From positions 864,001 through 928,000 of the forward strand of contig CAXXMV010000006.1 of the NCBI GenBank assembly GCA_963662285.2: 64,000 bases of DNA, given 5' to 3'. Positions within the stretch are counted from its first letter, which is position 1; every line of letters begins with the position of its first letter. The translations under genes and the position numbers were made by a program. Below the pieces are notes generated by a model that saw nothing but the letters and a program-made list of their open reading frames with translations, was not told where the DNA came from and ran no database searches. The DNA is from a bacterium (GTDB lineage Bacteria; Hinthialibacterota; Hinthialibacteria; Hinthialibacterales; Hinthialibacteraceae). Positions 22,788-55,344 of the stretch are shown piece by piece.

Positions 22788-22800
22788 TATCTTTTATATG

Positions 22801-31345: not shown

Positions 31346-33403
31346 TTAATACAAAGACCAGTGATTAACCTCGACGGGTCCTGCGGCGCCGTGGAATGTT
31401 GCGTCGCGTCCGTTGCCGCTGATGTCGGTTAGAACGCCTTCTTCCATCTGGCGGGAGGTATAATACATCATTAAGCCGTTATCTTTCATTTCGCTGATAT
31501 TTTCCTCTTCGGGAGGCGTTCCCAGCAATGCTTGAATCTCGGTTTCGCTTAGGGCGCGGTTCCAAATTCGGATGTTTTCCATGGCGCCTTCATACAATGC
31601 GCCGTCTTCTGATAATGCGCCGATATACAGAGGCGTTCCGCCCCAGGGGAGCATGCCGAAGGCGTCCACGTCATCCACCAGCACTCCGTTGTAGTAGAGT
31701 TTCATTAATTCCATGTCGTAAGTTCCGCATAGATGCACCCATTGTCCGGCGGGCGGCATGGGGGCGGCGGCGTCTCCGGCATCTGGTACGAACATGTGGA
31801 TGCGGTTGCCGTACTGTGATCCTCCAAACAGACTGAATTCTTCACCAGAGCCGCCGCGGCCTACGATGCCCAGATTCGTCATTTGGCGGTCATGGAAAAC
31901 GGGAGTCAAATTCACCCAGGCCTCGATTGTGATATAGTCTATTTCAAATAAATCCGGATCATCAAAAACCGCGTAATTGGTTTGGCCGTCGAACACGATG
32001 CCTTGTTCAGGTTTAAAGGCCAGATGCGACTCATCGATTTCAAAGGCGCCGAAAGTCCCATCGTTGCCATTGCCGGTCAGGTCGATTAACTGGTCGCCAT
32101 CCACTGAGCGGGACGCCCAATAGGCGATCAATCCATTGGTTTTCATGGCCTCGATATCTTCATCTTCCGGCTTGATTTTTAACAAGTTCAGGATTTCTTC
32201 TTCGGTCAGCGCTTTATTCCAGATTTTCATATTTTCCATCTGGCCGTCCAGGTGACGGCTGCCCGGTTCCAGGGCGCCGAGGTACAATGGCGCGTCGCTA
32301 TCAAGCGGTTGTCCCGGAGCAGAAGATTCATGCTGCAAAATGCCGTTGTAGTATAGCCTTTTGGTTCCATCATCCGTGCGGACACCAACGATGTGAATCC
32401 ATTCATTAGCCGGTGGGACAGGGCCGTTGGCGTGACTGTATCCGCTTACATCTTCGACCAGGAACCTAATCCGGTCGTAAAGATAAAAGGTGAATAAGTT
32501 GGGCGCCCCGCCGCGGTTCATGAATACCTGATTTTCGTGCATGCGGTCGAATTTTACCCAAACTTCAAGAGAAAACGCGGATAGATTAAATGGCGTTCCA
32601 TCCTCGATCTTGACGTAAGTGCTTTGCCCGTCAAATGAGATTCCACCATCAGGCATGAAGGTCAGATTGCTTTGATCAAGGGTATATGTTACTTTGGCTG
32701 CATTGTTGTTTCCGGCCAGGTCATTAACCGTGTTATCTTCAACCGAACGTTGCGACCAATAAGATATCAAGCCATCTGATTTCATTTGATCGATATTCTC
32801 ATCAGCGGGTTGAGTGGCAAGCAATGCGGCGATTTCGGCTTCGCTAAGCGCGCGGTTCCAGATGCGTAAATTTTCCAGCATCCCATTTAGGTGCCGATCT
32901 CCCGGTTCCAACGCGCCAATCATTAAAGGTTCTTCACCATAACGAGTGACTGCTTCCCAGGCGGTTTCAGCAACCAGAATGCCATTATAATACAGTCGCA
33001 CAAAGGCTCCATCAAAGACGCCGGCCACATGCACCCATTCGCCTGCGGGGAAGATTTCGGTTATGGCTGATTCATGGCCATTATCAACATTCTCGACCAG
33101 AAAACGTCCGTTGCCGTTATCGGCGTATAGAGTGAAATATTCTCCTCCGGCGCCCCGTCCGGCGATTTGCTGGCGGCCAGAGTTGTCGCGTAAATTGACC
33201 CAGGTTTCCACTGTAATCGCGTCAACGTTGAAATCATCGACTGTCGTCACCTGTAAAAATTCCGTAGTTCCATTGAGCGAGATGCCGCGTTCCGGTTTCC
33301 AGGTGAGTTTAGATTCATCCAACTGAGCCTGACAGACTGAACTTAAACCCATAATGAATAAACCAACGAAAGTTACGCTCCATATTCTTTGCCAATGTTT
33401 CAT
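31346..33403 (-). CDS. exported protein with three LamG-like jellyroll domains and C-terminal V-x-x-W-x-L-Y motif
   Basis: Signal peptide (CQA-Q); three repeats with T(V/I)E.WV, W.H..G.(F/Y)D...LYYNG, EN..IWN.AL...EI; ends VEVNHWSLY. Confidence 0.88.
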   Translation of the reverse strand: MKHWQRIWSVTFVGLFIMGLSSVCQAQLDESKLTWKPERGISLNGTTEFLQVTTVDDFNVDAITVETWVNLRDNSGRQQIAGRGAGGEYFTLYADNGNGRFLVENVDNGHESAITEIFPAGEWVHVAGVFDGAFVRLYYNGILVAETAWEAVTRYGEEPLMIGALEPGDRHLNGMLENLRIWNRALSEAEIAALLATQPADENIDQMKSDGLISYWSQRSVEDNTVNDLAGNNNAAKVTYTLDQSNLTFMPDGGISFDGQSTYVKIEDGTPFNLSAFSLEVWVKFDRMHENQVFMNRGGAPNLFTFYLYDRIRFLVEDVSGYSHANGPVPPANEWIHIVGVRTDDGTKRLYYNGILQHESSAPGQPLDSDAPLYLGALEPGSRHLDGQMENMKIWNKALTEEEILNLLKIKPEDEDIEAMKTNGLIAYWASRSVDGDQLIDLTGNGNDGTFGAFEIDESHLAFKPEQGIVFDGQTNYAVFDDPDLFEIDYITIEAWVNLTPVFHDRQMTNLGIVGRGGSGEEFSLFGGSQYGNRIHMFVPDAGDAAAPMPPAGQWVHLCGTYDMELMKLYYNGVLVDDVDAFGMLPWGGTPLYIGALSEDGALYEGAMENIRIWNRALSETEIQALLGTPPEEENISEMKDNGLMMYYTSRQMEEGVLTDISGNGRDATFHGAAGPVEVNHWSLY

Positions 33404-33451
33404 CGTATTCTCCTTTCGATATAAGCATCCTTATTCATTAAATAAAAATAA

Positions 33452-34003
33452 TTAAGGCCCGAATCGGTATATATCTCCATCGCTTCGCAATCCATTGCTT
33501 AAATCAAACCACAACAGGTATTGTTTTTCGGTGGATTCAAAATCCTGATCCGGCCCGAAACTCATGATACACCATCCACCTTTTTGCTGTTTGATGGATG
33601 CCATGGCCGGATGGTCGAACCAGGTACTCGTACGACGGTGGTTCATAGTGTCCGGTCCCCAAAATGGATAAACCGCGTTTGGTTCAATATCTATGGTGTT
33701 AAAAACATCCCGCACGCTGGCTGACATATATGCCACTGGAGTGGTTAAGCGTTTGAAGCGTAATTGCCGTGGATTGATAAACGTAGTGGAATCTGGCCAA
33801 TAGGTATTGGGGTATGAACCTTCATCGATCATGTACATTTCTATAGCTGTTCCGATAGCTTTCATGTTGCTTTCGGTAGCGGCCACTTTAGCGCGAACCT
33901 GAGCATTGAGAAAATTGGGTACGGCGATGGCTGCCAGGATGCCAATGATTGCTACAACGATCAGTAATTCGATTAGGGTAAAACTGAATTGTCTATTATG
34001 CAT
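33452..34003 (-). CDS. GspG-like major pseudopilin / prepilin-type protein
   Basis: S|FTLIELLIVVAIIGILAAIAVPNF, NMKAIGTAIEMY..DEGSYP, LTTPVAY, SFGPD, SNGLRSDGDI. Confidence 0.88.
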   Translation of the reverse strand: MHNRQFSFTLIELLIVVAIIGILAAIAVPNFLNAQVRAKVAATESNMKAIGTAIEMYMIDEGSYPNTYWPDSTTFINPRQLRFKRLTTPVAYMSASVRDVFNTIDIEPNAVYPFWGPDTMNHRRTSTWFDHPAMASIKQQKGGWCIMSFGPDQDFESTEKQYLLWFDLSNGLRSDGDIYRFGP

Positions 34004-34110
34004 CTCAATTTCCTGATAAAGATTTATTCATTGAAGAATCGTATGAATTTTTAGAATGTTGCCAGAATCGATTGTATCATAGATTAATTGTTAATACTCA
34101 ACTTATTTCT

Positions 34111-34917
34111 CTATTCGATAATATTATTGGCAGAATTGTACTGTTGATCAAAGGCCTTTTGCCAATCTTCAATGCTACTGTCTTCAGGCAATTCTATACC
34201 TGTAAGAATTTTAAGCGCTTGTTCAATGTCATGCCTATAGATTGATTCATTATTCTTGATCAGGACTTCTAAAAGAATCGGAAAATCTATTTTGGGAGCG
34301 CCATTTTTTGCCAGTATTTCTGTTAGTTGTACTGCGGTGTAAATACTGGCTTGCGAAACAATTTGGCGAAGCTCTGCTAGATCAGTTGGATTGCTTTTTA
34401 TTTGTTGAACTAAAGAGCGCCCGGGGCCATACTCGCTCCAATTGATAATGAATTCCGCGCGCGTCCTGTTGTGATTAGTCCACAATGAAAAACATAATAA
34501 ACTGGCTAAAGCGATGCCGCCGGTTATTGAAACGGTAATGTATTTAATTCTTTGTTTCTTATCCCATTTGTTGCGAACATTTTTATTTGCAGTATTTATT
34601 GCGAGAAGGATAGGGGGGATTAAAAGAAATAAAGAAAGGAATGGTATATAAATAACTAAACCAATAATTATCACGCTAAAACCAATCAGGATGGCTCGAT
34701 ATCTTATTGGCAGTCCCCATGTATGAGGTATGTGTTTATTTGCGGCATCACAGGCAGTTACAAACCAAATTACCGGAAACAAAATCCAAAGAGTGAATGG
34801 TGGAAGAAAGTAATCGAAATAGGCCATAGCGCAGATGTTGCATGCAGAAGCCGAAACAGGGCATCCAATTATTATCGCAATACCAACTAGTTGTATAAGA
34901 TGTTTTCTACTCATCAA
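34111..34917 (-). CDS. hypothetical membrane protein
   Basis: Signal-like N-terminus followed by ACNIC, several TM segments and a helical C-terminal domain; AAGGAG RBS. Confidence 0.65.
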   Translation of the reverse strand: MMSRKHLIQLVGIAIIIGCPVSASACNICAMAYFDYFLPPFTLWILFPVIWFVTACDAANKHIPHTWGLPIRYRAILIGFSVIIIGLVIYIPFLSLFLLIPPILLAINTANKNVRNKWDKKQRIKYITVSITGGIALASLLCFSLWTNHNRTRAEFIINWSEYGPGRSLVQQIKSNPTDLAELRQIVSQASIYTAVQLTEILAKNGAPKIDFPILLEVLIKNNESIYRHDIEQALKILTGIELPEDSSIEDWQKAFDQQYNSANNIIE

Positions 34918-34941
34918 TACTTCTCCTTACTAAATGTTGAG

Positions 34942-35028
34942 AAGTTCTTAGGCTAAATTATCATCGATATTTTCTTGCATGAAGGTCATTTTGAGAATAG
35001 TCATCTCCTCGAAGATATTAGAGCGATT
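34942..35028 (-). repeat. duplicated upstream (promoter/leader) segment, copy 1
   Basis: Core GTCATTTTGAGAATAGTCATCTC (34985-35007) matches 39823-39845 at 22/23; weaker similarity extends both ways. Confidence 0.7.
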
Positions 35029-35064
35029 ATCAAAAATATTTTCGATTTATTTTCACGTTTGATC

Positions 35065-35098
35065 TTCGTAGAAGCCAATCTTCTCTGGCTTCTACGAA
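35065..35098. terminator. hairpin downstream of the glycoside hydrolase gene (terminator or mini-REP)
   Basis: Perfect 13-bp stem TTCGTAGAAGCCA/TGGCTTCTACGAA, no clear U-tract. Confidence 0.45.
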
Positions 35099-35113
35099 TA
35101 GCCAATCATAACA

Positions 35114-37459
35114 TTATTGTGAAATACGAATAATGGAATACGGTTCTAAGGAATATGTTTTTCCATCAGGCAAACTCACATCAACACAGGCGTCTCCATA
35201 ATTGATAGCAAGGATGCAACCATCTTGCTGGATGCTGAAAAACACCTTGTCGGGGTGTTGAATGCGTAGCGCCTTTTGGGTAAGCGGGTGAAGTTGATTC
35301 ACCGACAGCAGTACAGTATTGACATAGTCGCCATACAGGCCGGGCGGTTCCATGTCGCCGGGGAAGCGGTGAAACGCTCCCTGCCCTGTATCGCCCCTCG
35401 CCCATTTCTTGAATGTGGTGCTCTTCCCGTTCACTGTTTCCAGATCACCTTTGGGGAAAGATGGATATATTACCGTTCCGCCTTTACGCATCCAGGCGTC
35501 GATTATTTCAAGAACATCGTCATCGATAATCTTACCCCAGGCGAAGATGAATACTTTGTATCGATCCAAAAAGCCATCACGAATCAAGGTCTCATTCAGG
35601 TAATCCACCTCGACATGCTTACGGATTTCCCGAGCGCGTGGATTGAAGCCCCAGGCGTACAAATGGCGAAACGTTCCTTCATCCAATTGGTTCATGGTTT
35701 CGGGATAGTAAATCGCCGCATCAATAACGGGGTCTTGCCGGGTATCGAGTATCGAAAAATGTTCCAACCATTTTTGGATGGCCAGGGGATGATTAAAAAT
35801 ATTGGAATGATAGGTAAAGAAATGATCGCCGTTGGTCACGGTGGTGTTGAATAGACGTCCAACCGTCCCACGGGCGGTGTGAGAACTGGCCGGTTCAAAT
35901 CCCAGATCGACGCCATATAACCGCGCCGCGGTGGCCGCTAAACGTGTTGCAAAAAAATTCTGTTGAAAACTATCAGTTTCATTGGTCAAGCGAATGCCGC
36001 CGTCAATGGCGATCATAGACTTGGTTTGATCAACGTAATCGGTACCCGCTTCGAGAAAGCCCCACCCGCCAGCGGATTGATAGATATTTGTATCGGGCAT
36101 GGCATTGCGGGCCTGCTGCGCCCACCAATCGCACCACTTAGACATTGAACTGGTATACCAACGCGCCATATCCAGACGACGGCGTTTGGAATAACAGTTC
36201 ATGGGAAGCACAGTTTTGACTTCATCAAATGCCGTAAAGTTTTTGTCCCATGCTACATTGAGTTGTTTGATGTTCTTATATTGATCCTTTACGTATCGTT
36301 GGAAATCTAACTGCGCATAGGGGTCGCCCGCCCAATAGCCGATGTGAATATGCATGGCCTGACCTTTGTAGCCCCAGTTGCCGCCTGCTGGATACTGTGA
36401 TTCCCCATAGTTGCCGCTTGGTCCCAGGCGCACGCCTTGCAGAACCTTCATGGGTTCGTAATGCTTACCAAAGGCATTCAAGACGCGGATAACGTGTTTT
36501 TTATGATGAGGGCTCCAGATACTCTGGATGGGGTTGGATATACCATGCTCCAGGCATTCAAAACCGACGTTCTCATCGCTATTAATGAACCATTCCGGCA
36601 ATGAATAGGCCGAACCGACTATCAATAGCGGAAACCATTTCAATCCATACTGACCGAGTTTTTCTACTACTGCATCATAAAAACTAAAATCGAAGCGCCC
36701 CAGTTCCGGCTCGATCAAATTCCATTTAACGTAGGATTCAATGGCGTTGAATCCCAATACTTTCGCCAGAGGCGCCAGTTCGTGCAGCGCGTCTATTGAA
36801 GATTTAAGCGCTGTGCTATCCGACAAAACCGCTACTCCCGCCGAACAGACGATATCCATCGGTCTCTTTAATTGAACCATAGGCTCAACCTCAACCGGAA
36901 CGGATTGTATGGCCCGCTGCCAGTCGTCTTCGGAAAAATCGTCATGGATCAGGATACTTTTCAAATACTGTAATCCGGTGATTTTAATATGAGGTTTTTC
37001 AGACTCTTTCCATAGCGAAGGTTTTATAGAATTAAATTGAAAAAAAGCGCTTCTGACGCGTTTTGTGTTTAATCGGGTATATGACGCATAGCGGGCTGCA
37101 TTACTCCACTGCCCATTGAAACGATCATCGGACAAGATGCTGCATTCGATAACGCCCGCCTCTAAATCGTGGAATTGCACTTCGATAACAATGGATTGAC
37201 TATCCTGGCAGATAAGCGCATCGGCTTGAAAATCCCATGATGGTTTCACATAGGGATCACTGGTAAGAGGTTGAATCAAGACTCTGTAATCGTCGAAAGT
37301 TTTTGATTGATAATCTGAAGCATTCAATAACCGCAATGCCTGAGAAGATTCAATGGCTTGCGAAGAGAATAGAACACAAGGTTTATTTCCACAATAAACG
37401 GTGTTGCATGTAACCGCGAACAAAAAAACAGATATTAAATAATAACAATGTTTTCCCAT
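35114..37459 (-). CDS. exported TIM-barrel glycoside hydrolase (GH14/GH42-like)
   Basis: AKVLGFNAIESYVKWNLIEPELGRFDFSFYD, LPEWF, RLGPSGNYGESQYP; C-terminal trimerisation-like domain (LDRYKV...WMRKGGTVI). Confidence 0.72.
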   Translation of the reverse strand: MGKHCYYLISVFLFAVTCNTVYCGNKPCVLFSSQAIESSQALRLLNASDYQSKTFDDYRVLIQPLTSDPYVKPSWDFQADALICQDSQSIVIEVQFHDLEAGVIECSILSDDRFNGQWSNAARYASYTRLNTKRVRSAFFQFNSIKPSLWKESEKPHIKITGLQYLKSILIHDDFSEDDWQRAIQSVPVEVEPMVQLKRPMDIVCSAGVAVLSDSTALKSSIDALHELAPLAKVLGFNAIESYVKWNLIEPELGRFDFSFYDAVVEKLGQYGLKWFPLLIVGSAYSLPEWFINSDENVGFECLEHGISNPIQSIWSPHHKKHVIRVLNAFGKHYEPMKVLQGVRLGPSGNYGESQYPAGGNWGYKGQAMHIHIGYWAGDPYAQLDFQRYVKDQYKNIKQLNVAWDKNFTAFDEVKTVLPMNCYSKRRRLDMARWYTSSMSKWCDWWAQQARNAMPDTNIYQSAGGWGFLEAGTDYVDQTKSMIAIDGGIRLTNETDSFQQNFFATRLAATAARLYGVDLGFEPASSHTARGTVGRLFNTTVTNGDHFFTYHSNIFNHPLAIQKWLEHFSILDTRQDPVIDAAIYYPETMNQLDEGTFRHLYAWGFNPRAREIRKHVEVDYLNETLIRDGFLDRYKVFIFAWGKIIDDDVLEIIDAWMRKGGTVIYPSFPKGDLETVNGKSTTFKKWARGDTGQGAFHRFPGDMEPPGLYGDYVNTVLLSVNQLHPLTQKALRIQHPDKVFFSIQQDGCILAINYGDACVDVSLPDGKTYSLEPYSIIRISQ

Positions 37460-37689
37460 GATGCCTCCATATTATTGTTATAACATAAGAACGCTTGATT
37501 GTATAACAAACGTTCTATATAAGTGAAGAGGTTATCATGCCCGATGTTGATATATCACAACATCCGGTTATTTCGGGTCGCCTTGTTTAATCCAATCGAT
37601 ATCGAATGCTGTCATAGCGACAAGCGTTAGTGTAAGTAATAGGTATACTCGAATCACTGTTTTTCTTATCAATTAATACTTGGTTATAT

Positions 37690-41000: not shown

Positions 41001-41017
41001 CCTGCAAAAGTCTAGTC

Positions 41018-47431: not shown

Positions 47432-47464
47432 GTAAGATAGGACAAAGCGACCGCGTGTCCCATC
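47432..47464 (+). repeat. REP-like palindrome, GTAG family variant B (degenerate)
   Basis: GTAAGATAGGACAAAGCGACCGCGTGTCCCATC. Confidence 0.7.
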
Positions 47465-47684
47465 GTTTTATTGGATGTAATCATTATAGCAAAAAAATCT
47501 AAAATCTTTGACTATGATTTTAAATCGTATATACGTTTCTCCATATCTTGATTGATGCTTTTCAAAAAATATAAGTGATCTATTTCAGAATATAGGCTAA
47601 ACTCCAACTTTATCAAAAAATAGAATTCCTCCCCCACCCCACAAGAATCCCAAAACCCCAAAATCACTGCTATGATGGTTGATT

Positions 47685-50204
47685 ATGAATCAACTACAGC
47701 CAATCAATCATAATCAGACTTTATCCGATGTTGTGCGTTCGTTTGCGCGTCGCGGGGATGATGACGCGCTATGTTTTTTTAATGGATTTCGGATTTTCCG
47801 TTATTCATACCGGGAGGTCTATGATTTATCGCTGCGTTGCGCGGCTTATTTCAGAGATAAGGGCGTCGGTCGGGGCGACCGGGTTTTGATTTGGGCTTCT
47901 AACCGTCCTGAGTGGGGCGTGGTGTTCTGCGCCTGCGCATTGAGCGGCGTGGTGCTTGTCCCGCTGGACGCCCGCAATACTGAGGATTTCGCGGTTCGGG
48001 TGGGGCGGGAAACCGAAGCCAAATTGATTGTGCGAAGCCGGGTGAGACGCGATCCGGGGCTGCCTATTCCAACTGTGTTTGTTGAAGACCTGTTCGAGTT
48101 TCTCAAGGCCTATGATCCCGCAGAAATCACGGAACAGGTTAAGCCCGGTGATCCGCTGGAGATTCTATATACATCAGGCACCACCGGGAATCCCAAGGGA
48201 GTCGTTTTGACTCATGGCAATATCGTCGCAAACCTGAGTGATATTCTTCAACTTATTCCGGTTGACCAATCATACCGTCTGCTCTCGGTATTGCCGCTGA
48301 GCCACGCCCTGGAGCAGATGGCCGGGTTCTGGGCGCCGCTGGCGGCGGGAGGCTCGGTGCTTTATTTGCAGGCCATGAAGCCGTCCGCCTTGTTTCAGGC
48401 CTTTCAACGCGACCGTATCACCGTCATGATTCTGGTGCCCCGGCTGCTGGCGCTGCTCAAGCACCGCATCGAGAATACTCTGCAAGAAAAACACCTGACA
48501 GGTTATCTGAAATTAGGTTTAAGCCTATCTCCCTTGATGCCGGTATGGCTCAGGAAGATTTATTTCTATCCCATCCACAAAGGTTTCAATCCAAAATTCA
48601 ACCTCTTCGTAGTCGGCGGCTCATCATTACCGCATGATGTCGAACAGTTCTGGAGAGCCATTGGCTTTGAATTGCTGCAAGGCTACGGGCTGACCGAAAC
48701 CAGCCCTGTTTTGGCGGCTAGTGGTATCGGTGGCGCCAGAATGGGTTCGGTGGGTCATGCGCTGAGCAGCGTCAAGTTGCGCATGGGCGGCGATGGAGAA
48801 ATCCTCGCCCAAGGCCCCAACGTCTTCGGCGGCTATTACCAGAATCAAAAGGCCACTGATGAGGTCTTCGAGGATGGCTGGTTCAAAACGGGCGATATCG
48901 GCGAACAAGACCAGGACGGTTTTCTATATATCAAAAGCCGCAAAAAAGACATCATCGTCACCCCGGACGGCCTCAATGTATATCCCGAAGATATCGAAAG
49001 CATCATGGATACTGATGCCGCAATCAAGGAAGCCTGCGTGATCGGTATCGGAGAGCATCAAGAGAAAATCCACGCTGTGGTTCAGTGGCATGAAACAGTA
49101 GCCGATGGAGACGCCGTCATCCAGCGCGTCAACCTTCAGTTGCCGCCGGAGCAGCGCATCGAATCATGGAGCGAGTGGACTGAAAACGAGTTTCCCAAAA
49201 CCACCACGCTTAAAATAAAAAAGAATCTGGTTCGCCAGAAAATCGCTGATCAAGGCGATAAGCCTGATTCCCCCCAACCAGTGCAGGGAACCATGTTGCA
49301 GCAGATAATCTGCGAAATCGCCGATATCCCGCTTAAGTCCTTATACCCCGAAGCAAAATTGGGAGACGACCTGGGGCTGAGTTCTATCGGGCGGGTTGAA
49401 TTGATCACCCGGCTCGAAGAGGAATACCGCATCGATATTGATGATGACGTGGTGACTCCAGATACCACGGTAGCCGGATTGGATCAAATCATAATCCAGA
49501 AAAAAGGCGCCGCACAAGACATCTGTTTCCGGCGTTCGACCTTGTCGCCAATATGCCGCGCAGTGCGATGGGCTTTCGACCGCATGGTAGTGCGAAACTT
49601 AATGAGGATTTATTGCGACGTCGAATGCAGCGGCCTGGAAAACCTGGGCGGCTTGAATGACGGGCCATACCTGATTGTATCCAACCACACCAGCCACATT
49701 GATACTCCACTGATTCGTATGACATTACCGCCGCATATCGGCGACCGCATCTGTCCCGCAGCCTGGAGGGAGTATTTCAACGCGGAAGGCCGCCCGTTGC
49801 ATATAAGGATCGGCAAATGGATGGCCTGGCAGATAGCCACTATTTTCTTCAATATTTTCCCCTTCCCCCAAACCGCCGCCTACCGAAAGAGCATGTCCTA
49901 CGCCGGGGAACTGGTAGACAAGGGGTGGAGCGTGTTGTTCTATCCCGAAGGCGGTCGCACCATTGATGGCGATTGGAAAGAATTCCGCGAGGGAATCGGC
50001 ATCCTCTCCAGTAATTTAAGCGTCCCCATAATACCGGTAGCCATCCTGGGAGGAGAAAAAATCCTACCCGCAGGCGCCGCGATCCCAAAACGCAACAAAG
50101 TAAAAATAGCCTTCGGACGTCCCTTCTGCGTAGATCACGCCCACTATAAAGAAATAGCCGATCAGGTAAAACAAGAAATGCGGGCGCTATGGGAAACGCT
50201 GTAA
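47685..50204 (+). CDS. acyl-AMP/CoA ligase + acyl carrier domain + PlsC-type acyltransferase fusion
   Basis: YTSGTTGNPKG, QGYGLTE, WFKTGD; ACP motif DLGLSSIGRVEL; acyltransferase NHTSHID and YPEGGRT. Confidence 0.9.
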   Translation: MNQLQPINHNQTLSDVVRSFARRGDDDALCFFNGFRIFRYSYREVYDLSLRCAAYFRDKGVGRGDRVLIWASNRPEWGVVFCACALSGVVLVPLDARNTEDFAVRVGRETEAKLIVRSRVRRDPGLPIPTVFVEDLFEFLKAYDPAEITEQVKPGDPLEILYTSGTTGNPKGVVLTHGNIVANLSDILQLIPVDQSYRLLSVLPLSHALEQMAGFWAPLAAGGSVLYLQAMKPSALFQAFQRDRITVMILVPRLLALLKHRIENTLQEKHLTGYLKLGLSLSPLMPVWLRKIYFYPIHKGFNPKFNLFVVGGSSLPHDVEQFWRAIGFELLQGYGLTETSPVLAASGIGGARMGSVGHALSSVKLRMGGDGEILAQGPNVFGGYYQNQKATDEVFEDGWFKTGDIGEQDQDGFLYIKSRKKDIIVTPDGLNVYPEDIESIMDTDAAIKEACVIGIGEHQEKIHAVVQWHETVADGDAVIQRVNLQLPPEQRIESWSEWTENEFPKTTTLKIKKNLVRQKIADQGDKPDSPQPVQGTMLQQIICEIADIPLKSLYPEAKLGDDLGLSSIGRVELITRLEEEYRIDIDDDVVTPDTTVAGLDQIIIQKKGAAQDICFRRSTLSPICRAVRWAFDRMVVRNLMRIYCDVECSGLENLGGLNDGPYLIVSNHTSHIDTPLIRMTLPPHIGDRICPAAWREYFNAEGRPLHIRIGKWMAWQIATIFFNIFPFPQTAAYRKSMSYAGELVDKGWSVLFYPEGGRTIDGDWKEFREGIGILSSNLSVPIIPVAILGGEKILPAGAAIPKRNKVKIAFGRPFCVDHAHYKEIADQVKQEMRALWETL

Positions 50205-50343
50205 CTCGCAAAAAAATCCTTCTCAGTATAAGTGTTGTTATTAATACGTATTGGCGAATTGCTGTTGCTGAAAATATTGTATTATGATATATTTGGTTTA
50301 ATCATTGTTGTGTATAACTTTTTACATCATCCAGGGGGGATTC

Positions 50344-53300
50344 ATGAGAACAACAACACGACTGATTATATCTAATCCAATCATTTGTTTGATCATATTA
50401 TTAACCTATGCTTCCAGCGCAGTTTGCTCCACTCTTGATATGATGGCTGATATATCGAAGCCAGTAGTTACCGAATTCGCGGAATATCAACCTGAATTGA
50501 TTGATATCACACCATCGGTTGAGCCATACAAAATCGCTGATGATTTCAGTAATGTTTGGAATTTCGATCAATTTCAATTTTCGGATGAACAAAAGCGGTT
50601 GCTTCTCGAAAATGGTTTCGTCGCCGTGCAAAGCGATGATAAGGAGATGTATGAGATTTACAACCGGGCGCTTAAAGAGAATACGCCTATCTTTGTTACG
50701 GTAGACGCCCTGCTTCATGCTTTCCACGAACAATTCGATTACATTCTGCGCACCCTCGAAACCGACAGGTTCATTTCTCATATACAACAGATGACCATCG
50801 CCCTGATCGATGGCTCATTGGAGCAATATAACGAGGCCGCCGATTCCCGCGTTAAAGAAGCAGCGCGCAAAAACCTCGCCTTTTTCTGTGTTGCGCTTGC
50901 CATGCTTGATGCTGACTATGCTGCTCCCGCATTGGTCGCGGAACTGGTTGCGTCTGAATTGCAACTCATCGACGCTCACAATAGCATGACGCATTCTCCG
51001 TTGCGTGGTTATGCGGAAGACTACACCCAGTACGTCCCGCGTGGGCACTATACTCTTTCAGAAGACCTGAAGCGCTATTTCCGCGCCATGATGTGGTATG
51101 GCCGAAGCACGTTTCATAACAAGGAAACAGCATTCTTAGGCATTACGCATGACATGGCGGAAATGGAAACCATTCAGGCCTTGCTGGTTACTCAATTGAT
51201 GAACATATCATCCATAGGCGACAATTCGGTTTTGGATCTATGGCGACAAGTATACCTTCCCACAGTCTTCTTCGTCGGCCAATCCGATAACCTTAATATC
51301 GACGATTACACCAGCGCTGCGCTGGATGTCTACGGCGCAGATTTCACCACCCTACCCGTAGATCAATTCAGCGACGCTGATAACCTGGATGCTTTCATGA
51401 ATTACCCCACCCGCCCGGCGTCGCAAATCAGCGCGGATGTCTGGGGCGGTGGATTCAGCATCATGGGTCAGCGTTTTATCCCCGATTCCTACATTATTGA
51501 TAAACTGAATTTTCTTGAAGAAGCCCGTTTACCCAGCGGTTTGGATGTCATGTCCGTATTAGGCTCAGAGCGCGCCAAAGAGATACTGACTCAATCCGGT
51601 TTATACACAGAGATGTATGCAGAGAAGCATGATAAATTGTACCAGGAATTCTTGGATAAAGATGAATCAGTCTGGGCCCAAAATGTATATTGGAACTGGT
51701 TATATTGCTTAATGCCCATGCTGGCCGACAAGGAAGAAGGCTTCCCCTTTTTCATGCAGAACGACGCATGGCGCGACAAGGATTTATCCTGCGCCCTGGG
51801 TTCATGGGCTGAACTGCGGCACGATACGATTTTATATGCCCGGCCTAGTGCTGTCGGTAGTGCGGATAACTCATCTAATGCTTACAAATCGGAGTACGTC
51901 GAACCAAATCCCTGGGCTTTTGGTCGTCTAGCATCCTTAGTGCGCTATACCATTGATGGACTAAATAATCTTAACCTTATTAAAGATTTCAAATTTTCGG
52001 ATAGAATAAATGATCTGTATGAGATTTCATCATCATTACAAACTATCTCTTTGAAAGAACTGACAAACCAACCTTTAACAATCAATGAATGTAAATTTAT
52101 CCGTGGAATTGGAGATCCTTTGACATTGTTGTGTACTATCTTTGACGAGGAAGATGATAATTATTTTCCTGATGTACGTCCCGATGGAGAGAACATGGAT
52201 GATATGTCGTTAATTGCTGATATCCATACTGACTTGATAATTGGAGAAGCCTTGGAAATTGGCGTAGGTCGCCCATTAACGATATACGTCATAATCGGAG
52301 AAGGGGATAATTTGTCGATTTCCGTGGGATCAGCTTTTTCCTATTACGAATTCGGTCAACCCATGAATGACCGGCTGACCGATGAAGCATGGCGTAAAAT
52401 GCTGAATGAATCAGAGCAGCCGCCGCAACCAAGTTGGGTGAGCAGTTATATGGGAAATAATAATACACCGGATAATATTGATAAGAACGATAGGATAAAG
52501 AGGATATCCTCACCTGTTAGAGAAATGAATTATCTCATTTCGCCCTCTCTGCTTGCACAAGGAGAAAATCTAACGGCCCGGTTTGTTTTTGATGCAACAG
52601 AAATATATAGAAATATCGAATACTATGAAAAATATAATTATCCTTGCTATATACCCGGTATGGATTCTTACTTCGTCCAAATTATTTTAGGGGATCGTAT
52701 TCTAGTTATTGAACTCGAAGAAGATGTTCTAACCGATGAACCTTTCGATTATTCCGCCGTCATAAATACGGACGACTGGCCAACCGGAACCTATGATCTA
52801 TTATTCTATAGCCCCACCAATCTAGCGATTTACGCAAACAAGCAGTTCACGGTTTATGAAAGCGTCGAGCAAATTCCTACCTTAACTCCAACATTCACCC
52901 AGACGCCAACTCCAACTCTAACACCTATACCAACCGCGCCCCCTAATCCGGTTTATATGACGGATACCATGAATGATTCCCAATCGATAGTCTATGATTT
53001 CGATCCACCCTGGCAACGGGATATCATTATTCGTTGGGATTTCACGAAACAATATCAGAGTTATATGATAATGGTGAAAGTAAATGATAATGGTGAATTC
53101 CAGAATCTAGGCGAAACTGTCGGGAGTGAGAATTTCTTCGAGTGGAGCATCGATAATAAATATGGCCAAATCATTGCAGAAGAGTTTTTGGATGGACCTC
53201 AACTAAATACCGATTACACCTTCTCCATCTATGGGAGCAATAGGCGTTACTATTGGTTTTTATGTGAATCTTTCACCTTTCATTATAAAATTGATCAAAC

Positions 53301-53406
53301 GGCGCCCACGCCCACATTAACTCCATCCCAGACGCCAACACTCACGCCGACACCTACGCCGACATTGCCCCTGGTCAGCGTTGATGATTGGTTTTTATAT
53401 GATTGA
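50344..53406 (+). CDS. exported DUF3160-domain protein with Pro/Thr linkers and C-terminal V-x-x-W-x-L-Y motif
   Basis: LLLENGFV, PIFVTVDALLHAFH, DYTQYVPRGHYT, YFRAMMWYGR, GSWAELRHDTILY, YVEP, RLTDEAWR; PT repeats; ends VSVDDWFLYD; AGGGGGG RBS before 50344. Confidence 0.87.
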   Translation: MRTTTRLIISNPIICLIILLTYASSAVCSTLDMMADISKPVVTEFAEYQPELIDITPSVEPYKIADDFSNVWNFDQFQFSDEQKRLLLENGFVAVQSDDKEMYEIYNRALKENTPIFVTVDALLHAFHEQFDYILRTLETDRFISHIQQMTIALIDGSLEQYNEAADSRVKEAARKNLAFFCVALAMLDADYAAPALVAELVASELQLIDAHNSMTHSPLRGYAEDYTQYVPRGHYTLSEDLKRYFRAMMWYGRSTFHNKETAFLGITHDMAEMETIQALLVTQLMNISSIGDNSVLDLWRQVYLPTVFFVGQSDNLNIDDYTSAALDVYGADFTTLPVDQFSDADNLDAFMNYPTRPASQISADVWGGGFSIMGQRFIPDSYIIDKLNFLEEARLPSGLDVMSVLGSERAKEILTQSGLYTEMYAEKHDKLYQEFLDKDESVWAQNVYWNWLYCLMPMLADKEEGFPFFMQNDAWRDKDLSCALGSWAELRHDTILYARPSAVGSADNSSNAYKSEYVEPNPWAFGRLASLVRYTIDGLNNLNLIKDFKFSDRINDLYEISSSLQTISLKELTNQPLTINECKFIRGIGDPLTLLCTIFDEEDDNYFPDVRPDGENMDDMSLIADIHTDLIIGEALEIGVGRPLTIYVIIGEGDNLSISVGSAFSYYEFGQPMNDRLTDEAWRKMLNESEQPPQPSWVSSYMGNNNTPDNIDKNDRIKRISSPVREMNYLISPSLLAQGENLTARFVFDATEIYRNIEYYEKYNYPCYIPGMDSYFVQIILGDRILVIELEEDVLTDEPFDYSAVINTDDWPTGTYDLLFYSPTNLAIYANKQFTVYESVEQIPTLTPTFTQTPTPTLTPIPTAPPNPVYMTDTMNDSQSIVYDFDPPWQRDIIIRWDFTKQYQSYMIMVKVNDNGEFQNLGETVGSENFFEWSIDNKYGQIIAEEFLDGPQLNTDYTFSIYGSNRRYYWFLCESFTFHYKIDQTAPTPTLTPSQTPTLTPTPTPTLPLVSVDDWFLYD

Positions 53407-53414
53407 TAAAGATA

Positions 53415-53447
53415 GATGGGATACGGTTTAGCTATGACCCATCTTAC
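53415..53447 (-). repeat. REP-like palindrome, GTAG family variant B (degenerate)
   Basis: GATGGGATACGGTTTAGCTATGACCCATCTTAC. Confidence 0.6.
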
Positions 53448-53451
53448 TTGG

Positions 53452-53647
53452 CAAGCGGATCAGCGGTTTGATGAACACTTGGAAGAGTTGAAGAAAGGCC
53501 GTTAAAATGGGCGTCCCTTTGAAAGAGGTCATGAAAGAAATTTCCTCTGAACGCCAAAAATGCATACAGGCCAAAGCGGACGAATATATCAAAGAATATC
53601 AGACCCTTCAGGAGTTGCGTAAAGGGCGTAAATCGCCAACCAGATAA
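53452..53647 (+). pseudogene. relic of a RelE/Gp49-type toxin - XRE antitoxin pair
   Basis: Toxin tail ADQRFDEHLEELKKGR* (stop 53503-53505), then ATG 53507 MGVPLKEVMKKF, frameshift, SERQKCIQAKADEYIKEYQTLQELRK; breaks off at the start of the HTH. Confidence 0.68.
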
Positions 53648-53689
53648 TATGCAGCCAAAAAATAAGCGCACGAGTATGACATCATTGTT

Positions 53690-54130
53690 TTACCTAAATA
53701 TTTTATCGAGATGATGTCGCAGATGGCGCAGGTAGTCTTTTACTATGAAATCCAAAGTCACCGGCTCTGCTTTTCCGATGTTGCATGGAGCGCTGGCGGC
53801 CTGGTCGGGAAGGCATTGGCACACGCGGCATAAGTGATGGTTGTAAGCCGCCCAAAGCGTCACCAACGCATCCCAGGGCATTCCGTTGTATTGCTGAATC
53901 CTCACCCATTCATTTTGGTCGTAAATTGGAAACTGATCGGCTGCGCCATACGCAGCCCGGACAAAGCGCTGGTGGTTGTTGGCTGCCGAGTCTATTAGAT
54001 GTCCCAGAATCTCTTTTTTCGACCATGCAGTGGTTGAGGATTTAATCTCAACATCATTCTGATTCATGCGGGATAATTTTGGTTCAAACGTCTCAATGGT
54101 AGAACGGATTTGGGTTGAGGCGTCTTTCAT
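53690..54130 (-). CDS. DinB-family protein
   Basis: WSKKEILGHLIDSAANNHQRFVRA...YDQNEWV...DYLRHLRHHL; AAAGGA RBS. Confidence 0.88.
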   Translation of the reverse strand: MKDASTQIRSTIETFEPKLSRMNQNDVEIKSSTTAWSKKEILGHLIDSAANNHQRFVRAAYGAADQFPIYDQNEWVRIQQYNGMPWDALVTLWAAYNHHLCRVCQCLPDQAASAPCNIGKAEPVTLDFIVKDYLRHLRHHLDKIFR

Positions 54131-54228
54131 GGCAGGTTCCTTTCATTTCATAACATGATAAAAGATATAATGATATTGAGGATGATTATCAACAGCATTC
54201 TTACTTCAATCCCTAATCAGGGATGTAT

Positions 54229-55344
54229 TCAATATAAGTCCCATCCAATCACATCGGTGGTAAAATCACGGGAAAGAATGTAAAAAGCCACTTCGGGACG
54301 GTAATACAATGGGTCGTTAGGTAGTTCAACCATTGGTGAATAACCGATTAGCGCCCACTCTCCTTCCTCCAATTCAAATCCAAAACTATCCGGCCAATTA
54401 GTACCTGCATCGCCGCCCTCAAGTTCTGGATCATTATCACAATATAAGTAAGTCATAGGCTGGTCGGGTAGAAATTCATTCCAAGTCGTCCGGCTATTGA
54501 AAACCAGTGAAGGGTGAAACGGGTCTTCCGGGATTTCATCCAGATATCCGAAATGCACCAAAGGTTTTAACACGCTGTTTTTGGTGCGTTCTCCTCCTTC
54601 CACGCCTTCAAAGACATCATCAATTCGTTGTATTAGATGGCTATCATCATCCCAGAAATCAACCAGAAGAACGCCTTTTTCAGTGCGCAGTCTTTCAATA
54701 GCTCTCCCGATCTGCATCATATTTTCTTTAGATTTTTGGAGATATTCTTCAGCATTTTTCGGTTGAGATATAACTTGACTTTTATGAACGGTGAGATTTC
54801 GAGTTCGTGATCGGTCATAGGTTTTATTCTCTCCCGGACTGATCAAAACCCACTCATCCATCTGTACATAAAGGCTTAACATGAGTGTGAAATAATCAGT
54901 CTGATATTTTGTTTCGTTGATATTAATTGTGCTTTCTTCATCAAAATATATATAAGTATTAAAATCTGGATCGGAATCCTCTGGAATAAAAGGATCAATG
55001 GGTATTACATCCAAATAGCCGAAATGAACCAATGGCTGTAAGACGTCGAGCATGGTTCTGGGTCGGTCGCTTGGATTGCCGACATTTTCAAATTCTTCAT
55101 GCAGCCGCTTTTGACCGATTTCCGAATCATCGTCGATCAGGTCTACAAGTTTAACGCCTCGCTCTTCTTCAAAGCGGATAATAGCATCGCCGATTTTCAG
55201 CATATCACTCAATGCTTGTTCCACTTGGGAATTGGTCTCTTGAGATACAGCATTCAATGAAAATAAACAGTAGATACACATGCAAACAATAATCTGAAAT
55301 ATACAAATAGACTGATGTACCTGTTTAACTTCTTGAGATTGCAT
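54229..55344 (-). CDS. exported protein with two tandem pseudopilin-head-like domains and C-terminal V-x-x-W-x-L-Y motif
   Basis: Signal peptide (LNAVS-Q); internal duplication M..IG.AI.R...E.GV.LVD..DDDS...VL.PLVHFGYLD.IP.DPF...TY.Y.D...EW.LI; ends TDVIGWDLY; AAGGAG RBS. Confidence 0.75.
   Translation of the reverse strand: MQSQEVKQVHQSICIFQIIVCMCIYCLFSLNAVSQETNSQVEQALSDMLKIGDAIIRFEEERGVKLVDLIDDDSEIGQKRLHEEFENVGNPSDRPRTMLDVLQPLVHFGYLDVIPIDPFIPEDSDPDFNTYIYFDEESTININETKYQTDYFTLMLSLYVQMDEWVLISPGENKTYDRSRTRNLTVHKSQVISQPKNAEEYLQKSKENMMQIGRAIERLRTEKGVLLVDFWDDDSHLIQRIDDVFEGVEGGERTKNSVLKPLVHFGYLDEIPEDPFHPSLVFNSRTTWNEFLPDQPMTYLYCDNDPELEGGDAGTNWPDSFGFELEEGEWALIGYSPMVELPNDPLYYRPEVAFYILSRDFTTDVIGWDLY

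What the first reader, a model, noticed from the sequence alone, without database searches (positions are those of the whole stretch)
31346..55344. Shared C-terminal V-x-x-W-x-L-Y(-D)-stop motif on three unrelated exported proteins: candidate new sorting signal
Seen: three proteins with different bodies all have an N-terminal Sec signal and end alike. The LamG x3 protein ends ...GPVEVNHWSLY* (31346-31375), the DUF3160 protein ...LPLVSVDDWFLYD* (53374-53406), and the tandem-domain protein ...FTTDVIGWDLY* (54229-54258). In two of them the motif follows a flexible A/G/P or P/T linker. None of the other proteins called here, including the Tat sulfatases and glycosidases, ends this way. Established: PEP-CTERM, GlyGly-CTERM and LPXTG signals need a TM helix and a basic tail, and T9SS CTDs are folded domains of about 70-80 aa; this 7-8 residue soluble tail fits none of them. 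Inference: a lineage-specific secretion or surface-docking tag, perhaps working by beta-strand addition. I know of no name for it but cannot search the literature.
Basis: partly seen in the sequence, partly recalled or inferred. Interest (0 to 1): 0.92.

Follow-up and report, generated by a model that had tools for sequence, protein, structure and literature searches.

The report
Nine-residue tryptophan tail on exported proteins
About 190 unrelated exported proteins of this uncultivated bacterium, and many more in its relatives and in a second phylum, end in the same nine-residue tryptophan tail, which looks like an undescribed address or docking label whose reader is still unknown.

Summary
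All three window proteins end as described.

- **Size and signal.** Genome-wide, 193 of 5342 called proteins end in T-x-[VI]-x-[DNE]-W-x-[LIM]-[YFH], against 1 at a control position. Of these, 155 of 193 carry a signal peptide, against 1293 of 5149 others.
- **Bodies.** They fall into 92 unrelated clusters.
- **Selectivity.** 0 of 47 sulfatases carry the tail; 4 of 5 LamG paralogs do.
- **Level of selection.** Codons vary freely, so selection acts on the protein.
- **Spread.** The tail is found across the 35 genomes of the phylum. It is patchy in a second phylum whose record title reads Sumerlaeota. It is at background in 115 other bacterial families.
- **Not a known signal.** No NCBIfam or Pfam model covers it, and the paper searches found nothing.
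- **Equivalent slot.** DUF3160 homologues elsewhere carry a T9SS sorting domain at the same position.
- **Gene context.** The only family enriched next to tagged genes is a roughly 100-member GspG-like pilin family.
- **T2SS link.** The window's T2SS subtype is not co-distributed with the tail.

This scan reported the same tail earlier on another window of this genome (e1-4719819).

The parts
31349..31375 (-). nine-residue tail V-E-V-N-H-W-S-L-Y of the LamG x3 protein (stop codon 31346-31348)
   Evidence: V679, W682, S683, L684 and Y685 are invariant in 8 orthologues that are 56-68% identical to the window protein. AF2 models residues 680-685 with pLDDT below 50, on a body with mean pLDDT 86.7.
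31346..33403 (-). exported protein with three Laminin_G_3 domains, carrier of the tail
   Evidence: 4 of its 5 paralogues in the genome are tagged.
33452..34003 (-). GspG-like pilin paralogue 48 bp upstream of the LamG gene; member of the only gene family enriched beside tagged genes (candidate partner, binding not shown)
   Evidence: Its orthologue is directly followed by a W-tailed gene in 10 of 15 related genomes examined.
53374..53400 (+). nine-residue tail V-S-V-D-D-W-F-L-Y of the DUF3160 protein, followed by one extra D (53401-53403) and the stop (53404-53406)
   Evidence: 38 of 193 tags carry one extra residue.
50305..53406 (+). exported DUF3160 protein with extra C-terminal domains, a P/T linker and the tail
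   Evidence: Homologues from other phyla carry a T9SS Por_Secre_tail domain at the same end.
54232..54258 (-). nine-residue tail T-D-V-I-G-W-D-L-Y of the tandem-domain protein (stop 54229-54231)
   Evidence: All 6 database homologues (39-49% identical) end in the same tail, with V365 and W368 invariant.
54229..55344 (-). exported protein made of two pilin-head-like modules behind an ordinary Sec signal, ending in the tail
   Evidence: hhalign against the pilin alignment gives E 2.6e-4, probability 42%. phmmer hits to N_methyl pilins reach E 3e-17.
10777..26232 (-). T2SS gene cluster (GspE, F, pseudopilins, K, L/M-like, GspC-like, secretin with six Secretin_N domains, 642-aa unknown). Context only: not shown to read the tail.
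   Evidence: Its secretin type is not co-distributed with the tail in the second phylum. The 642-aa protein was not found there with this query, 0 of 41.

Best explanation
The tail is a short linear C-terminal motif: T at -9, V/I at -7, D/N/E at -5, W at -4, L/I/M at -2 and Y/F/H at -1, usually the last residue. It marks a chosen subset of Sec-exported proteins for one shared partner after export across the inner membrane. In other words it is an address or docking tag, functionally analogous to the T9SS C-terminal domain but only nine residues long and soluble.

Shown here:
- its existence, its enrichment and its association with signal peptides;
- selection at the protein level and conservation in diverged orthologues;
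- its selectivity among exported proteins and its restricted taxonomic range;
- that it occupies the slot where homologues carry a known sorting domain;
- that it is modelled as a free, disordered end.

Inferred:
- It is read as an exposed peptide by a protein of the cell envelope.
- The outcome is export to, or retention at, the cell surface.
- The best candidate partner is the type-IV-filament world (T2SS or pilus-like machines), specifically the roughly 100 GspG-like pilin paralogues. Their genes are the only ones enriched beside tagged genes, in two phyla.
For: **Enrichment and export**
- 193 of 5342 proteins score at least 10 bits at the C-terminus, against 1 at a control position 15 residues upstream.
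- Only positions -9 to -1 carry information; upstream columns are below 0.6 bit.
- Strict signal-peptide heuristic: 155 of 193 tagged against 1293 of 5149 untagged, odds ratio 12, p 1e-55.

**Unrelated bodies**
- 92 single-linkage clusters, 70 of them singletons.
- A random 35 of the 182 eligible tagged proteins gave 18 without a Pfam hit. The rest carried FG-GAP, S8, beta-lactamase-family, CBM9, solute-binding-like, WD40, S9 and CAP domains.

**Selection and conservation**
- Synonymous codons vary freely and there is no conserved DNA after the stop.
- The tail is kept in orthologues 39-81% identical: 11 of 13 homologues of a 260-aa family, 6 of 6 of the tandem protein, and invariant V/W/S/L/Y in 8 LamG orthologues.

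**Selectivity**
- 0 of 47 sulfatase and 0 of 9 DUF2961 paralogues are tagged, against 4 of 5 LamG paralogues.

**Equivalent slot**
- 4 DUF3160 homologues from other phyla carry Por_Secre_tail above the Pfam cut-off at this end, and a fifth sits just below it.
- G000 itself has no such domain above the cut-off.

**Free end**
- AF2 of the LamG protein has mean pLDDT 86.7, with residues 680-685 below 50.

**Taxonomic range**
- All 35 genomes of the phylum have matches. The own family has 16-46 DNA-pattern hits per genome, against 1-8 for the control.
- In the second phylum 17 of 41 sampled genomes have 7-30 hits and 5 have none. Seventeen tails were verified on ORFs in 10 fetched loci.
- 115 other families stay at background.

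**Pilin link**
- 25 of 193 tagged genes have an adjacent family pilin, against 91 of 1970 untagged genes with a signal-peptide-like start (odds ratio 3.1, p 1.5e-5), and 21 of the 25 lie on the same strand.
- It is the only family enriched within two genes of tagged genes: 30 of 106 members, p 4.5e-6.
- A pilin plus W-tailed gene pair is conserved in 10 of 15 genomes.
- The link replicates in two genomes of the second phylum: 9 of 48 tails lie within 2.5 kb of a pilin match, against 3.8 expected, p 0.013.
Against: - No reader has been identified and no location data exist.
- Only 13% of tagged genes sit beside a pilin.
- The pilin family is also abundant (18-36 matches) in the 5 genomes of the second phylum that have no tails, so pilins alone do not predict tails.
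- Two random tagged proteins are solute-binding-protein-like, a class that is normally periplasmic. This fits a periplasmic tether as well as surface display.
- 39 of 193 tags have 1-2 extra residues after the aromatic position, which argues against strict reading of a free carboxylate.
- In most tagged proteins the tail follows the last domain directly, without a clear linker.
- Gene calls and signal-peptide calls are heuristic.
- Related genomes are not independent samples.
Confidence: 0.6

Rival explanations
1. The tail is the secretion signal of the classical T2SS encoded in the window, read by its GspC-like protein, the N-domains of its secretin or its pseudopilus tip.
For: - A complete T2SS cluster lies in the same window.
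- The tagged proteins are the kind of proteins that T2SSs export.
- The pilin paralogues enriched near tagged genes are GspG-like.
- G000 has three T2SS-like clusters.
Against: - In the second phylum, matches to the N-domain region of the window secretin occur in all 5 zero-tail genomes (G043, G048, G050, G066, G076).
- They occur in none of the 6 most tail-rich genomes (G051, G065, G074, G045, G069, G040).
- The 642-aa operon protein was not found there, 0 of 41 with this query.
- The GspC-like protein has no PDZ domain.
- A second secretin type is present in nearly all 41 genomes, so it neither supports nor excludes the idea.
Confidence: 0.1
2. The tail is a ligand for a periplasmic PDZ-domain protease (HtrA/DegP-like or the Ctp/S41 tail-specific protease). 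It would serve as a maturation, activation or turnover signal rather than an address.
For: - C-terminal aromatic or hydrophobic peptides are the classical PDZ ligands; the DegS-YxF and Prc examples are recalled, not tested here.
- G000 encodes three HtrA-like proteases, one S41 Ctp, RseP and a beta-helix protein with a C-terminal PDZ domain.
- 154 of 193 tags end exactly at the aromatic or His residue.
Against: - These proteases are near-universal, but the tail is confined to two phyla.
- Conservation extends nine residues back to T at -9 and V at -7, further than typical PDZ recognition.
- 39 of 193 tags carry extra residues.
- A degron on about 190 stable-looking enzymes and binding proteins, kept for the depth of a phylum, is hard to rationalise.
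- No PDZ gene is enriched near tagged genes.
Confidence: 0.12
3. The tail anchors proteins directly in or on the outer membrane or cell wall without a dedicated protein reader. For example it could act as a BAM-type beta-signal mimic, or as a Trp/Tyr interfacial or glycan-binding anchor.
For: - A C-terminal aromatic residue as in OMP beta-signals, and Trp/Tyr-rich ends that favour membrane interfaces (general knowledge, recalled).
- K/R are depleted in the last 12 residues: 0.35 against 1.78.
- No reader was found by gene context other than pilins.
Against: - The alternating hydrophobic pattern of a beta-signal is missing: -3 is S/E/M and -5 is D/N/E.
- The carriers are soluble beta-sandwich or enzyme folds, not barrels.
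- Nine residues with four hydrophobic positions make a weak membrane anchor.
- The strict conservation of T, V, D/N and W spacing suggests a stereospecific protein pocket.
Confidence: 0.1
4. It is not a signal at all, but a shared structural end-cap, a paralogy artefact or chance.
For: - The largest body cluster holds 59 of the 193 tagged proteins, so part of the count is paralogy.
Against: - 92 unrelated body clusters with 70 singletons.
- 193 at the C-terminus against 1 at the control position.
- The tail is modelled as disordered and detached from a confidently folded body.
- Information is confined to nine residues.
- Codon-level variation rules out a DNA repeat.
Confidence: 0.03

Closest known systems
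T9SS C-terminal sorting domain (type A, Pfam PF18962 Por_Secre_tail / TIGR04183)
   Same: - A C-terminal add-on to many unrelated Sec-exported proteins, including glycan-binding proteins and hydrolases.
- It occupies the same slot: DUF3160 homologues in other phyla end in Por_Secre_tail where the window protein has the W tail.
- It marks a subset of the exported proteome.
   Different: - The CTD is a folded beta-sandwich domain; the Pfam profile has 75 positions. Here only nine residues are conserved and they are modelled as disordered.
- There is no sequence match.
- G000 has no Por_Secre_tail hit above the cut-off.
Tripartite C-terminal sorting signals: LPXTG/sortase, PEP-CTERM/exosortase, GlyGly-CTERM/rhombosortase, MYXO-CTERM
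   Same: - A short conserved motif at the C-terminus of many unrelated exported proteins.
- Lineage-restricted.
- Tens to hundreds of carriers per genome.
   Different: - Those signals need a hydrophobic transmembrane helix and a basic tail after the motif (recalled definition).
- Here the protein ends at the motif, 154 of 193, or one residue later, 38 of 193.
- K/R are depleted, and no NCBIfam CTERM model hits 24 tails even at E up to 10.
Type IVb pilus export signal of TcpF (Vibrio cholerae) and CofJ (ETEC), read by the minor pilins TcpB and CofB
   Same: [quoted passage not shown] It works by binding a pilin of a type IV filament (abstracts of PMC9565799 and PMC10120004; PMC6048534 seen only in the listing).
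- Here there is a disordered terminal peptide, and pilin genes are enriched and often operonic with carrier genes.
   Different: - That signal is N-terminal, serves one cargo per pilus, and binds a large tip-located minor pilin.
- Here the peptide is C-terminal, serves about 190 cargoes, and the linked pilins are about 200-aa GspG-like paralogues.
- Binding is not shown.
OMP C-terminal beta-signal and its PDZ reader (DegS YxF activation); tail-specific protease Prc/Ctp
   Same: - A C-terminal aromatic residue on exported proteins.
- Reading of an exposed C-terminus by strand addition is an established mechanism (recalled).
   Different: - No alternating hydrophobic pattern.
- The carriers are not beta-barrels.
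- The readers are universal whereas the tail is confined to two phyla.
WxL cell-wall-binding domain of Firmicutes (Pfam WxL)
   Same: The literal W-x-L within a C-terminal region of surface proteins (recalled).
   Different: - WxL is a domain of roughly 150-200 residues with two WxL motifs in monoderm bacteria (recalled).
- No Pfam WxL hit on any of the 3 window proteins or the 35 sampled proteins.

Membership tests
T9SS type A C-terminal domain (PF18962) | folded C-terminal domain matching the profile | tested here: not met
   No PF18962 hit on the window proteins or on the last 120 aa of the DUF3160 protein. Homologues from other phyla score 28.8-36.9 bits in the same call. Conservation is limited to 9 residues.
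T9SS type A C-terminal domain (PF18962) | genome carries many CTD cargoes and the T9SS machinery | tested here: not met
   One sub-threshold PF18962 match in G000, 26.1 bits against a cut-off of 27. The machinery genes (SprA, PorV, PorU) were not searched.
PEP-CTERM / GlyGly-CTERM / LPXTG / MYXO-CTERM tripartite signals | motif followed by a transmembrane helix and a basic cluster | tested here: not met
   The protein ends 0-2 residues after the motif: 154, 38 and 1 of 193. K/R count in the last 12 residues is 0.35 against 1.78 in controls.
PEP-CTERM / GlyGly-CTERM / LPXTG / MYXO-CTERM tripartite signals | match to a curated NCBIfam/TIGRFAM CTERM model | tested here: not met
   0 of 24 tails (last 60 aa) hit any sorting-signal model at E up to 10 in NCBIfam release 20.0.
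OMP beta-signal (BAM substrate) | C-terminal aromatic residue | tested here: met
   Y 112, F 40 and H 26 of 193 at position -1.
OMP beta-signal (BAM substrate) | alternating hydrophobic residues at -3, -5, -7 as the last strand of a beta-barrel | tested here: not met
   Position -3 is S/E/M and -5 is D/N/E. The carriers are LamG, subtilase, CBM9 and similar folds. The AF2 model shows soluble beta-sandwiches.
PDZ ligand (HtrA/DegS/Ctp type) | free C-terminal hydrophobic or aromatic residue bound by a PDZ domain of the same organism | tested here: inconclusive
   PDZ proteins exist. 154 of 193 tags end at the aromatic or His residue, but 39 carry extra residues. Binding was not tested.
Type IV filament export signal (TcpF/CofJ type) | disordered terminal segment on a Sec-exported protein | tested here: met
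   pLDDT below 50 for residues 680-685 on a body with mean pLDDT 86.7. Signal peptides on 155 of 193.
Type IV filament export signal (TcpF/CofJ type) | cargo gene linked to the pilus or pilin genes | tested here: met
   Adjacent pilin for 25 of 193 tagged genes against 91 of 1970, p 1.5e-5. Only enriched family. Conserved pair in 10 of 15 genomes. Second phylum: 9 of 48 against 3.8 expected.
Type IV filament export signal (TcpF/CofJ type) | signal binds a pilin and is needed for export | not testable with these tools
   This needs binding and secretion assays. The single complex prediction allowed gave no verdict (see Tried and rejected).
Type IV filament export signal (TcpF/CofJ type) | N-terminal position on the mature protein, one cargo per pilus | tested here: not met
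   The motif is C-terminal and sits on about 190 proteins.
WxL domain | match to the Pfam WxL domain | tested here: not met
   No such hit among the 3 window proteins or the 35 sampled tagged proteins.

The most novel reading that the evidence does not exclude
The W tail is a general, transferable linear export or display signal read by type-IV-filament pilins. On this reading the roughly 100 GspG-like pilin paralogues, often encoded in the same operon as a tagged protein, carry or display about 190 glycan-binding proteins and hydrolases on pilus-like fibres. That would be a pilus-borne analogue of the cellulosome or of T9SS surface attachment.

It would also be the first proteome-wide linear signal known for the T2SS/T4P class of machines. 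The abstract-page text of PMC10120004 describes their substrate recognition as 'not well defined'.
Probability: 0.2. Interest if true: 0.95.

Novelty: new variant of a known kind. Interest (0 to 1): 0.8.

Why it matters
C-terminal sorting signals have repeatedly led to the discovery of new envelope machines: sortase, exosortase, rhombosortase and the T9SS (recalled). This tail marks 3.6% of the proteome. It is conserved across a whole candidate phylum and part of a second. It is selective among exported proteins and matches no catalogued signal. An unknown reader therefore very probably exists.

Because the tag is only nine residues long, it is directly testable by peptide pull-down, reporter fusion and co-folding screens. 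It would also improve localisation prediction for polysaccharide-degrading uncultivated bacteria.

Its genomic tie to a huge, unexplained family of pseudopilin paralogues offers a handle on two things. One is the old question of what those paralogues do. The other is how type-II or type-IV filament machines recognise substrates.

Tried and rejected
1. **Complex prediction** of the window pilin head (residues 33-183, alignment A1) with the last 45 residues of the LamG protein (A2). Result: 'no answer', score 0.04 against a mark of 0.32, and the controls were not run. This is no evidence either way.
2. **AF2 of the tandem pilin-head protein** (A3, 7 sequences), to see whether its own tail docks in cis. 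Mean pLDDT was 57 and the tail was below 50, so it is uninformative.
3. **The 642-aa unknown of the T2SS operon as reader.** Not found in 0 of 41 genomes of the second phylum with this query, so it is not a shared reader, or it is too diverged to detect.
4. **Secretin profiling.**
   - The window secretin's N-domains are anti-correlated with tails in the second phylum.
   - The secretin of the C7 contig's T2SS-like cluster is present in nearly all genomes there, so it is not discriminating.
5. **Pilin copy number as predictor.** The family is present in all 35 and all 41 genomes, including zero-tail ones.
6. **PDZ inventory**. It holds only housekeeping-type proteins plus one beta-helix-PDZ protein, and none is enriched near tagged genes.
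7. **Neighbour-family enrichment**. Nothing besides pilins stands out; the next best p is 0.0055, uncorrected.
8. **Mutual exclusion with lipoprotein signals.** 8 of 178 against 116 of 1306, p 0.06, not significant. Tat-like motifs show no difference.
9. **Literature.**
   - Motif strings DWSLY, EWSLY, NWSLY, DWTLY, DWELY and WxLY found nothing relevant.
   - A search on Hinthialibacterota and OLB16 led to PMC9324843. Passages searched in that paper gave 0 occurrences of 'C-terminal', 'sorting' and 'type II secretion'.
   - The Sumerlaeota paper PMC8092238 gave 0 occurrences of 'C-terminal', 'secretion system', 'pilin', 'pili' and 'sorting'.
   - Generic sorting-signal searches found nothing.
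   - These searches cover only the held open-access library.

Full report
**Observation.**
- 31346-33403(-) encodes a 685-aa protein with three Laminin_G_3 domains, ending ..VEVNHWSLY.
- 50305-53406(+) encodes a 1033-aa DUF3160 protein, ending ..VSVDDWFLYD.
- 54229-55344(-) encodes a 371-aa protein without a Pfam family, ending ..TDVIGWDLY.

All three start with signal-peptide-like N-termini.

**Census in the genome.** The window lies on contig C6 of a 7.29-Mb, 44% G+C assembly. I called 5342 genes with a simple codon-usage caller.
Expected from its internal frequency is 0.8, and the mean over 200 tail shuffles is 0.29 (maximum 2).
- 87 of its 106 occurrences anywhere in the proteome are at the very end.
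- The looser core W.[LIMV][YF].{0,2}$ is found at 136 ends, against about 5 expected.
- A logo of those 136 ends shows information only at -9 (T80/V23/S18), -7 (V95/I23), -5 (D40/N31/E21), -4 (W), -3 (S50/E27), -2 (L87/I27) and -1 (Y98/F38).
- An iterated 9-column matrix finds 193 proteins at 10 bits or more at the C-terminus, against 1 at a control register 15 residues upstream. It adds variants such as D-W-M-L-H and D-F-M-L-Y.
- 154 of the 193 end exactly at the aromatic or His position, 38 have one extra residue and 1 has two.
- Codons for T, V and L at the conserved positions are used in all synonymous forms. The DNA after the stop is not conserved. The constraint is therefore on the peptide and not on a DNA element.

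**Who carries it.**
- A stricter signal-peptide heuristic is positive for 155 of 193 tagged proteins, against 1293 of 5149 others (odds ratio 12, p 1e-55). A lenient heuristic gives 178 of 193. Several of the remaining ones look like truncated gene calls or weak or Tat-like signals.
- With tails removed, the 193 bodies form 92 single-linkage BLAST clusters. The largest holds 59 and 70 are singletons.
- I drew a random 35 of the 182 tagged proteins that are at most 1300 aa long and lie outside the window. This dropped the 3 window proteins and 8 proteins longer than 1300 aa. Against Pfam, 18 of the 35 had no hit at 1e-4. The others had FG-GAP, S8 subtilase, beta-lactamase-family, CBM9, two solute-binding-protein-like folds, WD40, S9, CAP, CarboxypepD_reg, DUF5123 or DUF1349.
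- The tag is selective. 0 of 47 sulfatase paralogues and 0 of 9 DUF2961 paralogues carry it, while 4 of 5 paralogues of the LamG protein do.
- K/R are depleted in the last 12 residues, 0.35 against 1.78.
- The 20 residues before the tail are only slightly linker-like.

**Conservation.**
- In 8 LamG orthologues 56-68% identical to the window protein, V679, W682, S683, L684 and Y685 are invariant.
- A 260-aa tagged family has 13 relatives in a 5.8-billion-protein collection, and 11 of them end in the tail at 44-81% identity.
- All 6 relatives of the tandem protein (39-49% identical) end in it.
- AF2 folds the LamG protein confidently (mean pLDDT 86.7) but leaves residues 680-685 below 50 and unattached. 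This fits an exposed peptide, although low confidence is not proof of disorder.

**Distribution.** I scanned genomes with a degenerate DNA pattern for V-x-x-W-x-L-Y-stop, using the pattern read backwards as a control.
- *Home phylum.* All 35 genomes have matches. The own family has 16-46 hits against 1-8 for the control. Other families have 4-36, and two families are weak: G019 with 5 against 2 and G021 with 3 against 2.
I did not verify that name.
- *Other bacteria.* One genome from each of 116 other bacterial families stayed at 0-4 hits, with two exceptions. G109 is the same genome as G040 of the second phylum. G189 has hits that mostly end in TGG, not in a stop. Single genomes with record titles naming Neomarinimicrobiota, Fermentibacteria and Armatimonadota were at background.
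- *Second phylum.* This is the phylum of G038, reached through locus L077, whose record title reads 'Candidatus Sumerlaeota bacterium'. The distribution there is patchy. 17 of 41 sampled genomes have 7-30 hits, for example G051 with 30 against 1 and G065 with 19 against 2. Five genomes have none.
- *ORF check.* In 10 loci fetched from that phylum the hits are true C-termini of ORFs with signal-peptide-like starts. There are 17 tails of 10 bits or more, with the same T/V/D-E-N/W/L/Y spacing.

**Comparison with known signals.**
- No Pfam family covers the tails.
- NCBIfam release 20.0 gives no sorting-signal model for 24 tails, even at E up to 10.
- The tail has no transmembrane helix or basic cluster. 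It is therefore not a PEP-CTERM, GlyGly-CTERM, LPXTG or MYXO-CTERM type signal.
- It is not a T9SS CTD, but it sits in the same slot. DUF3160 homologues from other phyla (L002, L004, L005, L006) carry Por_Secre_tail above the Pfam cut-off at their C-terminus, and L011 sits just below it. Most other homologues stop right after DUF3160.
- G000 itself has only one sub-threshold Por_Secre_tail match.
- It lacks the alternating hydrophobic pattern of an OMP beta-signal.

- G000 encodes 114 proteins with prepilin-type N-termini. 96 of them belong to one family of about 200-aa GspG-like paralogues.
- 25 of 193 tagged genes have such a pilin as direct neighbour, against 91 of 1970 untagged genes with a signal-peptide-like start (odds ratio 3.1, p 1.5e-5). 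21 of the 25 are on the same strand.
- Among all families represented within two genes of a tagged gene, the pilin family is the only one clearly enriched: 30 of 106 members, p 4.5e-6. The next best is p 0.0055, uncorrected.
- The window shows this arrangement. Pilin 33452-34003 lies 48 bp upstream of the LamG gene.
- Its orthologue is directly followed by a W-tailed gene in 10 of 15 related genomes. One more genome has a degenerate tail, one has a LamG gene without a tail, and three have none.
- In the second phylum I first picked loci partly because pilin and tail hits shared a contig. That is a biased choice: 5 of those 10 loci have a pilin nearby, and the 5 picked only for paired tails have none. 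I therefore listed all hits in two tail-rich genomes. 9 of 48 tails lie within 2.5 kb of a pilin-family match, against 3.8 expected (p 0.013), and several have gaps of 28-170 bp on the same strand.
- Against a simple pilin model, the family is also abundant in the five zero-tail genomes, with 18-36 matches.

- The window's T2SS is one of three T2SS-like clusters, alongside a T4P and a Tad cluster, in G000.
- In the second phylum, matches to its secretin's N-domains are found in all 5 zero-tail genomes. They are found in none of the 6 most tail-rich ones.
- Its 642-aa operon protein was not found there.
- The secretin of the C7 contig's T2SS-like cluster is nearly universal there, so it is uninformative.

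**Mechanism.**
- *Best reading (confidence 0.6).* The tail is a post-Sec address or docking tag, read as an exposed C-terminal peptide by an envelope protein. It sorts binding modules, proteases and hydrolases away from the untagged periplasmic enzymes such as sulfatases.
The closest established mechanism is the T4b pilus export signal. [quoted passage not shown] The CofJ/CofB case (PMC6048534) I saw only in a search listing.
- *Rivals.* These are a signal for the classical T2SS (0.1), a PDZ-protease ligand (0.12), a reader-less membrane or wall anchor (0.1), and a structural end-cap or artefact (0.03).
- *Points that do not fit neatly.* Solute-binding-protein-like carriers are usually periplasmic. 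39 tags carry extra terminal residues. Pilin-rich genomes without tails exist.

**Novelty.**
- Nothing relevant turned up in the held literature. I searched motif strings, two phylum-describing papers by passage search and generic terms.
- No curated model exists.
- The same tail was reported earlier by this scan on another window of this genome (e1-4719819). Other notes report pseudopilin genes built into glycan operons of Sumerlaeota (e1-4667045, e1-4667046).
- I classify it as a new variant of a known kind, namely C-terminal sorting or docking tags. It is unusually far from the known classes because it is a nine-residue soluble peptide with no known machinery.

Noticed in passing
window 54229-55344 (-): The 371-aa 'tandem-domain' protein consists of two modules related to the head of GspG-like pilins, but behind an ordinary Sec signal instead of a prepilin leader. 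hhalign gives E 2.6e-4; phmmer hits to N_methyl pilins reach E 3e-17. All six homologues keep the W tail.
   Followed up: partly
whole genome G000; example window 33452-34003 (-): There are 114 prepilin-type N-termini, and 96 belong to one family of about 200-aa GspG-like paralogues with a near-identical N-terminal helix. Many end in an N-G-x-x-S-x-G-D-I motif. The family is present in every genome searched of both phyla.
   Followed up: partly
window 13287-16214 (-) and 11343-13271 (-): The T2SS secretin has six Secretin_N domains (975 aa). It is followed by a 642-aa membrane-anchored protein with no Pfam family, which was not found in the second phylum.
   Followed up: partly
G000 contigs C1:554893-566764, C7:11801-23836, C1:1216000-1227500, C6:773000-784000: Besides the window's T2SS, the genome holds two more T2SS-like clusters, a T4P-like cluster and a Tad cluster. 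In the C1 cluster the secretin appears as two adjacent ORFs, which is either a split gene or an artefact of my gene caller.
   Followed up: no
second phylum, genomes G038-G079: Matches to GspD-type secretin N-domains and W tails are nearly mutually exclusive among the extreme genomes. This suggests two clades with different export equipment; G053, G070 and G075 have both.
   Followed up: partly
G000:C8:28298-30739 (-): This is an 813-aa exported beta-helix-like protein with a C-terminal PDZ domain. It is encoded convergently, 19 bp from a 419-aa exported gene ending ..DNWQVFE, which matches my loose tail pattern but not the 193-member set.
   Followed up: no
loci L012, L032, L035, L047 (DUF3160 homologues): Another group of DUF3160 homologues (about 990-1020 aa) shares a different Cys-containing C-terminal module, ending ..EVVSA..P/R. 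I did not identify it.
   Followed up: no
L130 (G011) and L084 (G004): These show natural loss or decay of the tail in orthologues. One LamG orthologue ends ..VLDWALDE (9.9 bits) and another LamG paralogue lacks the tail altogether. They are useful natural controls.
   Followed up: no
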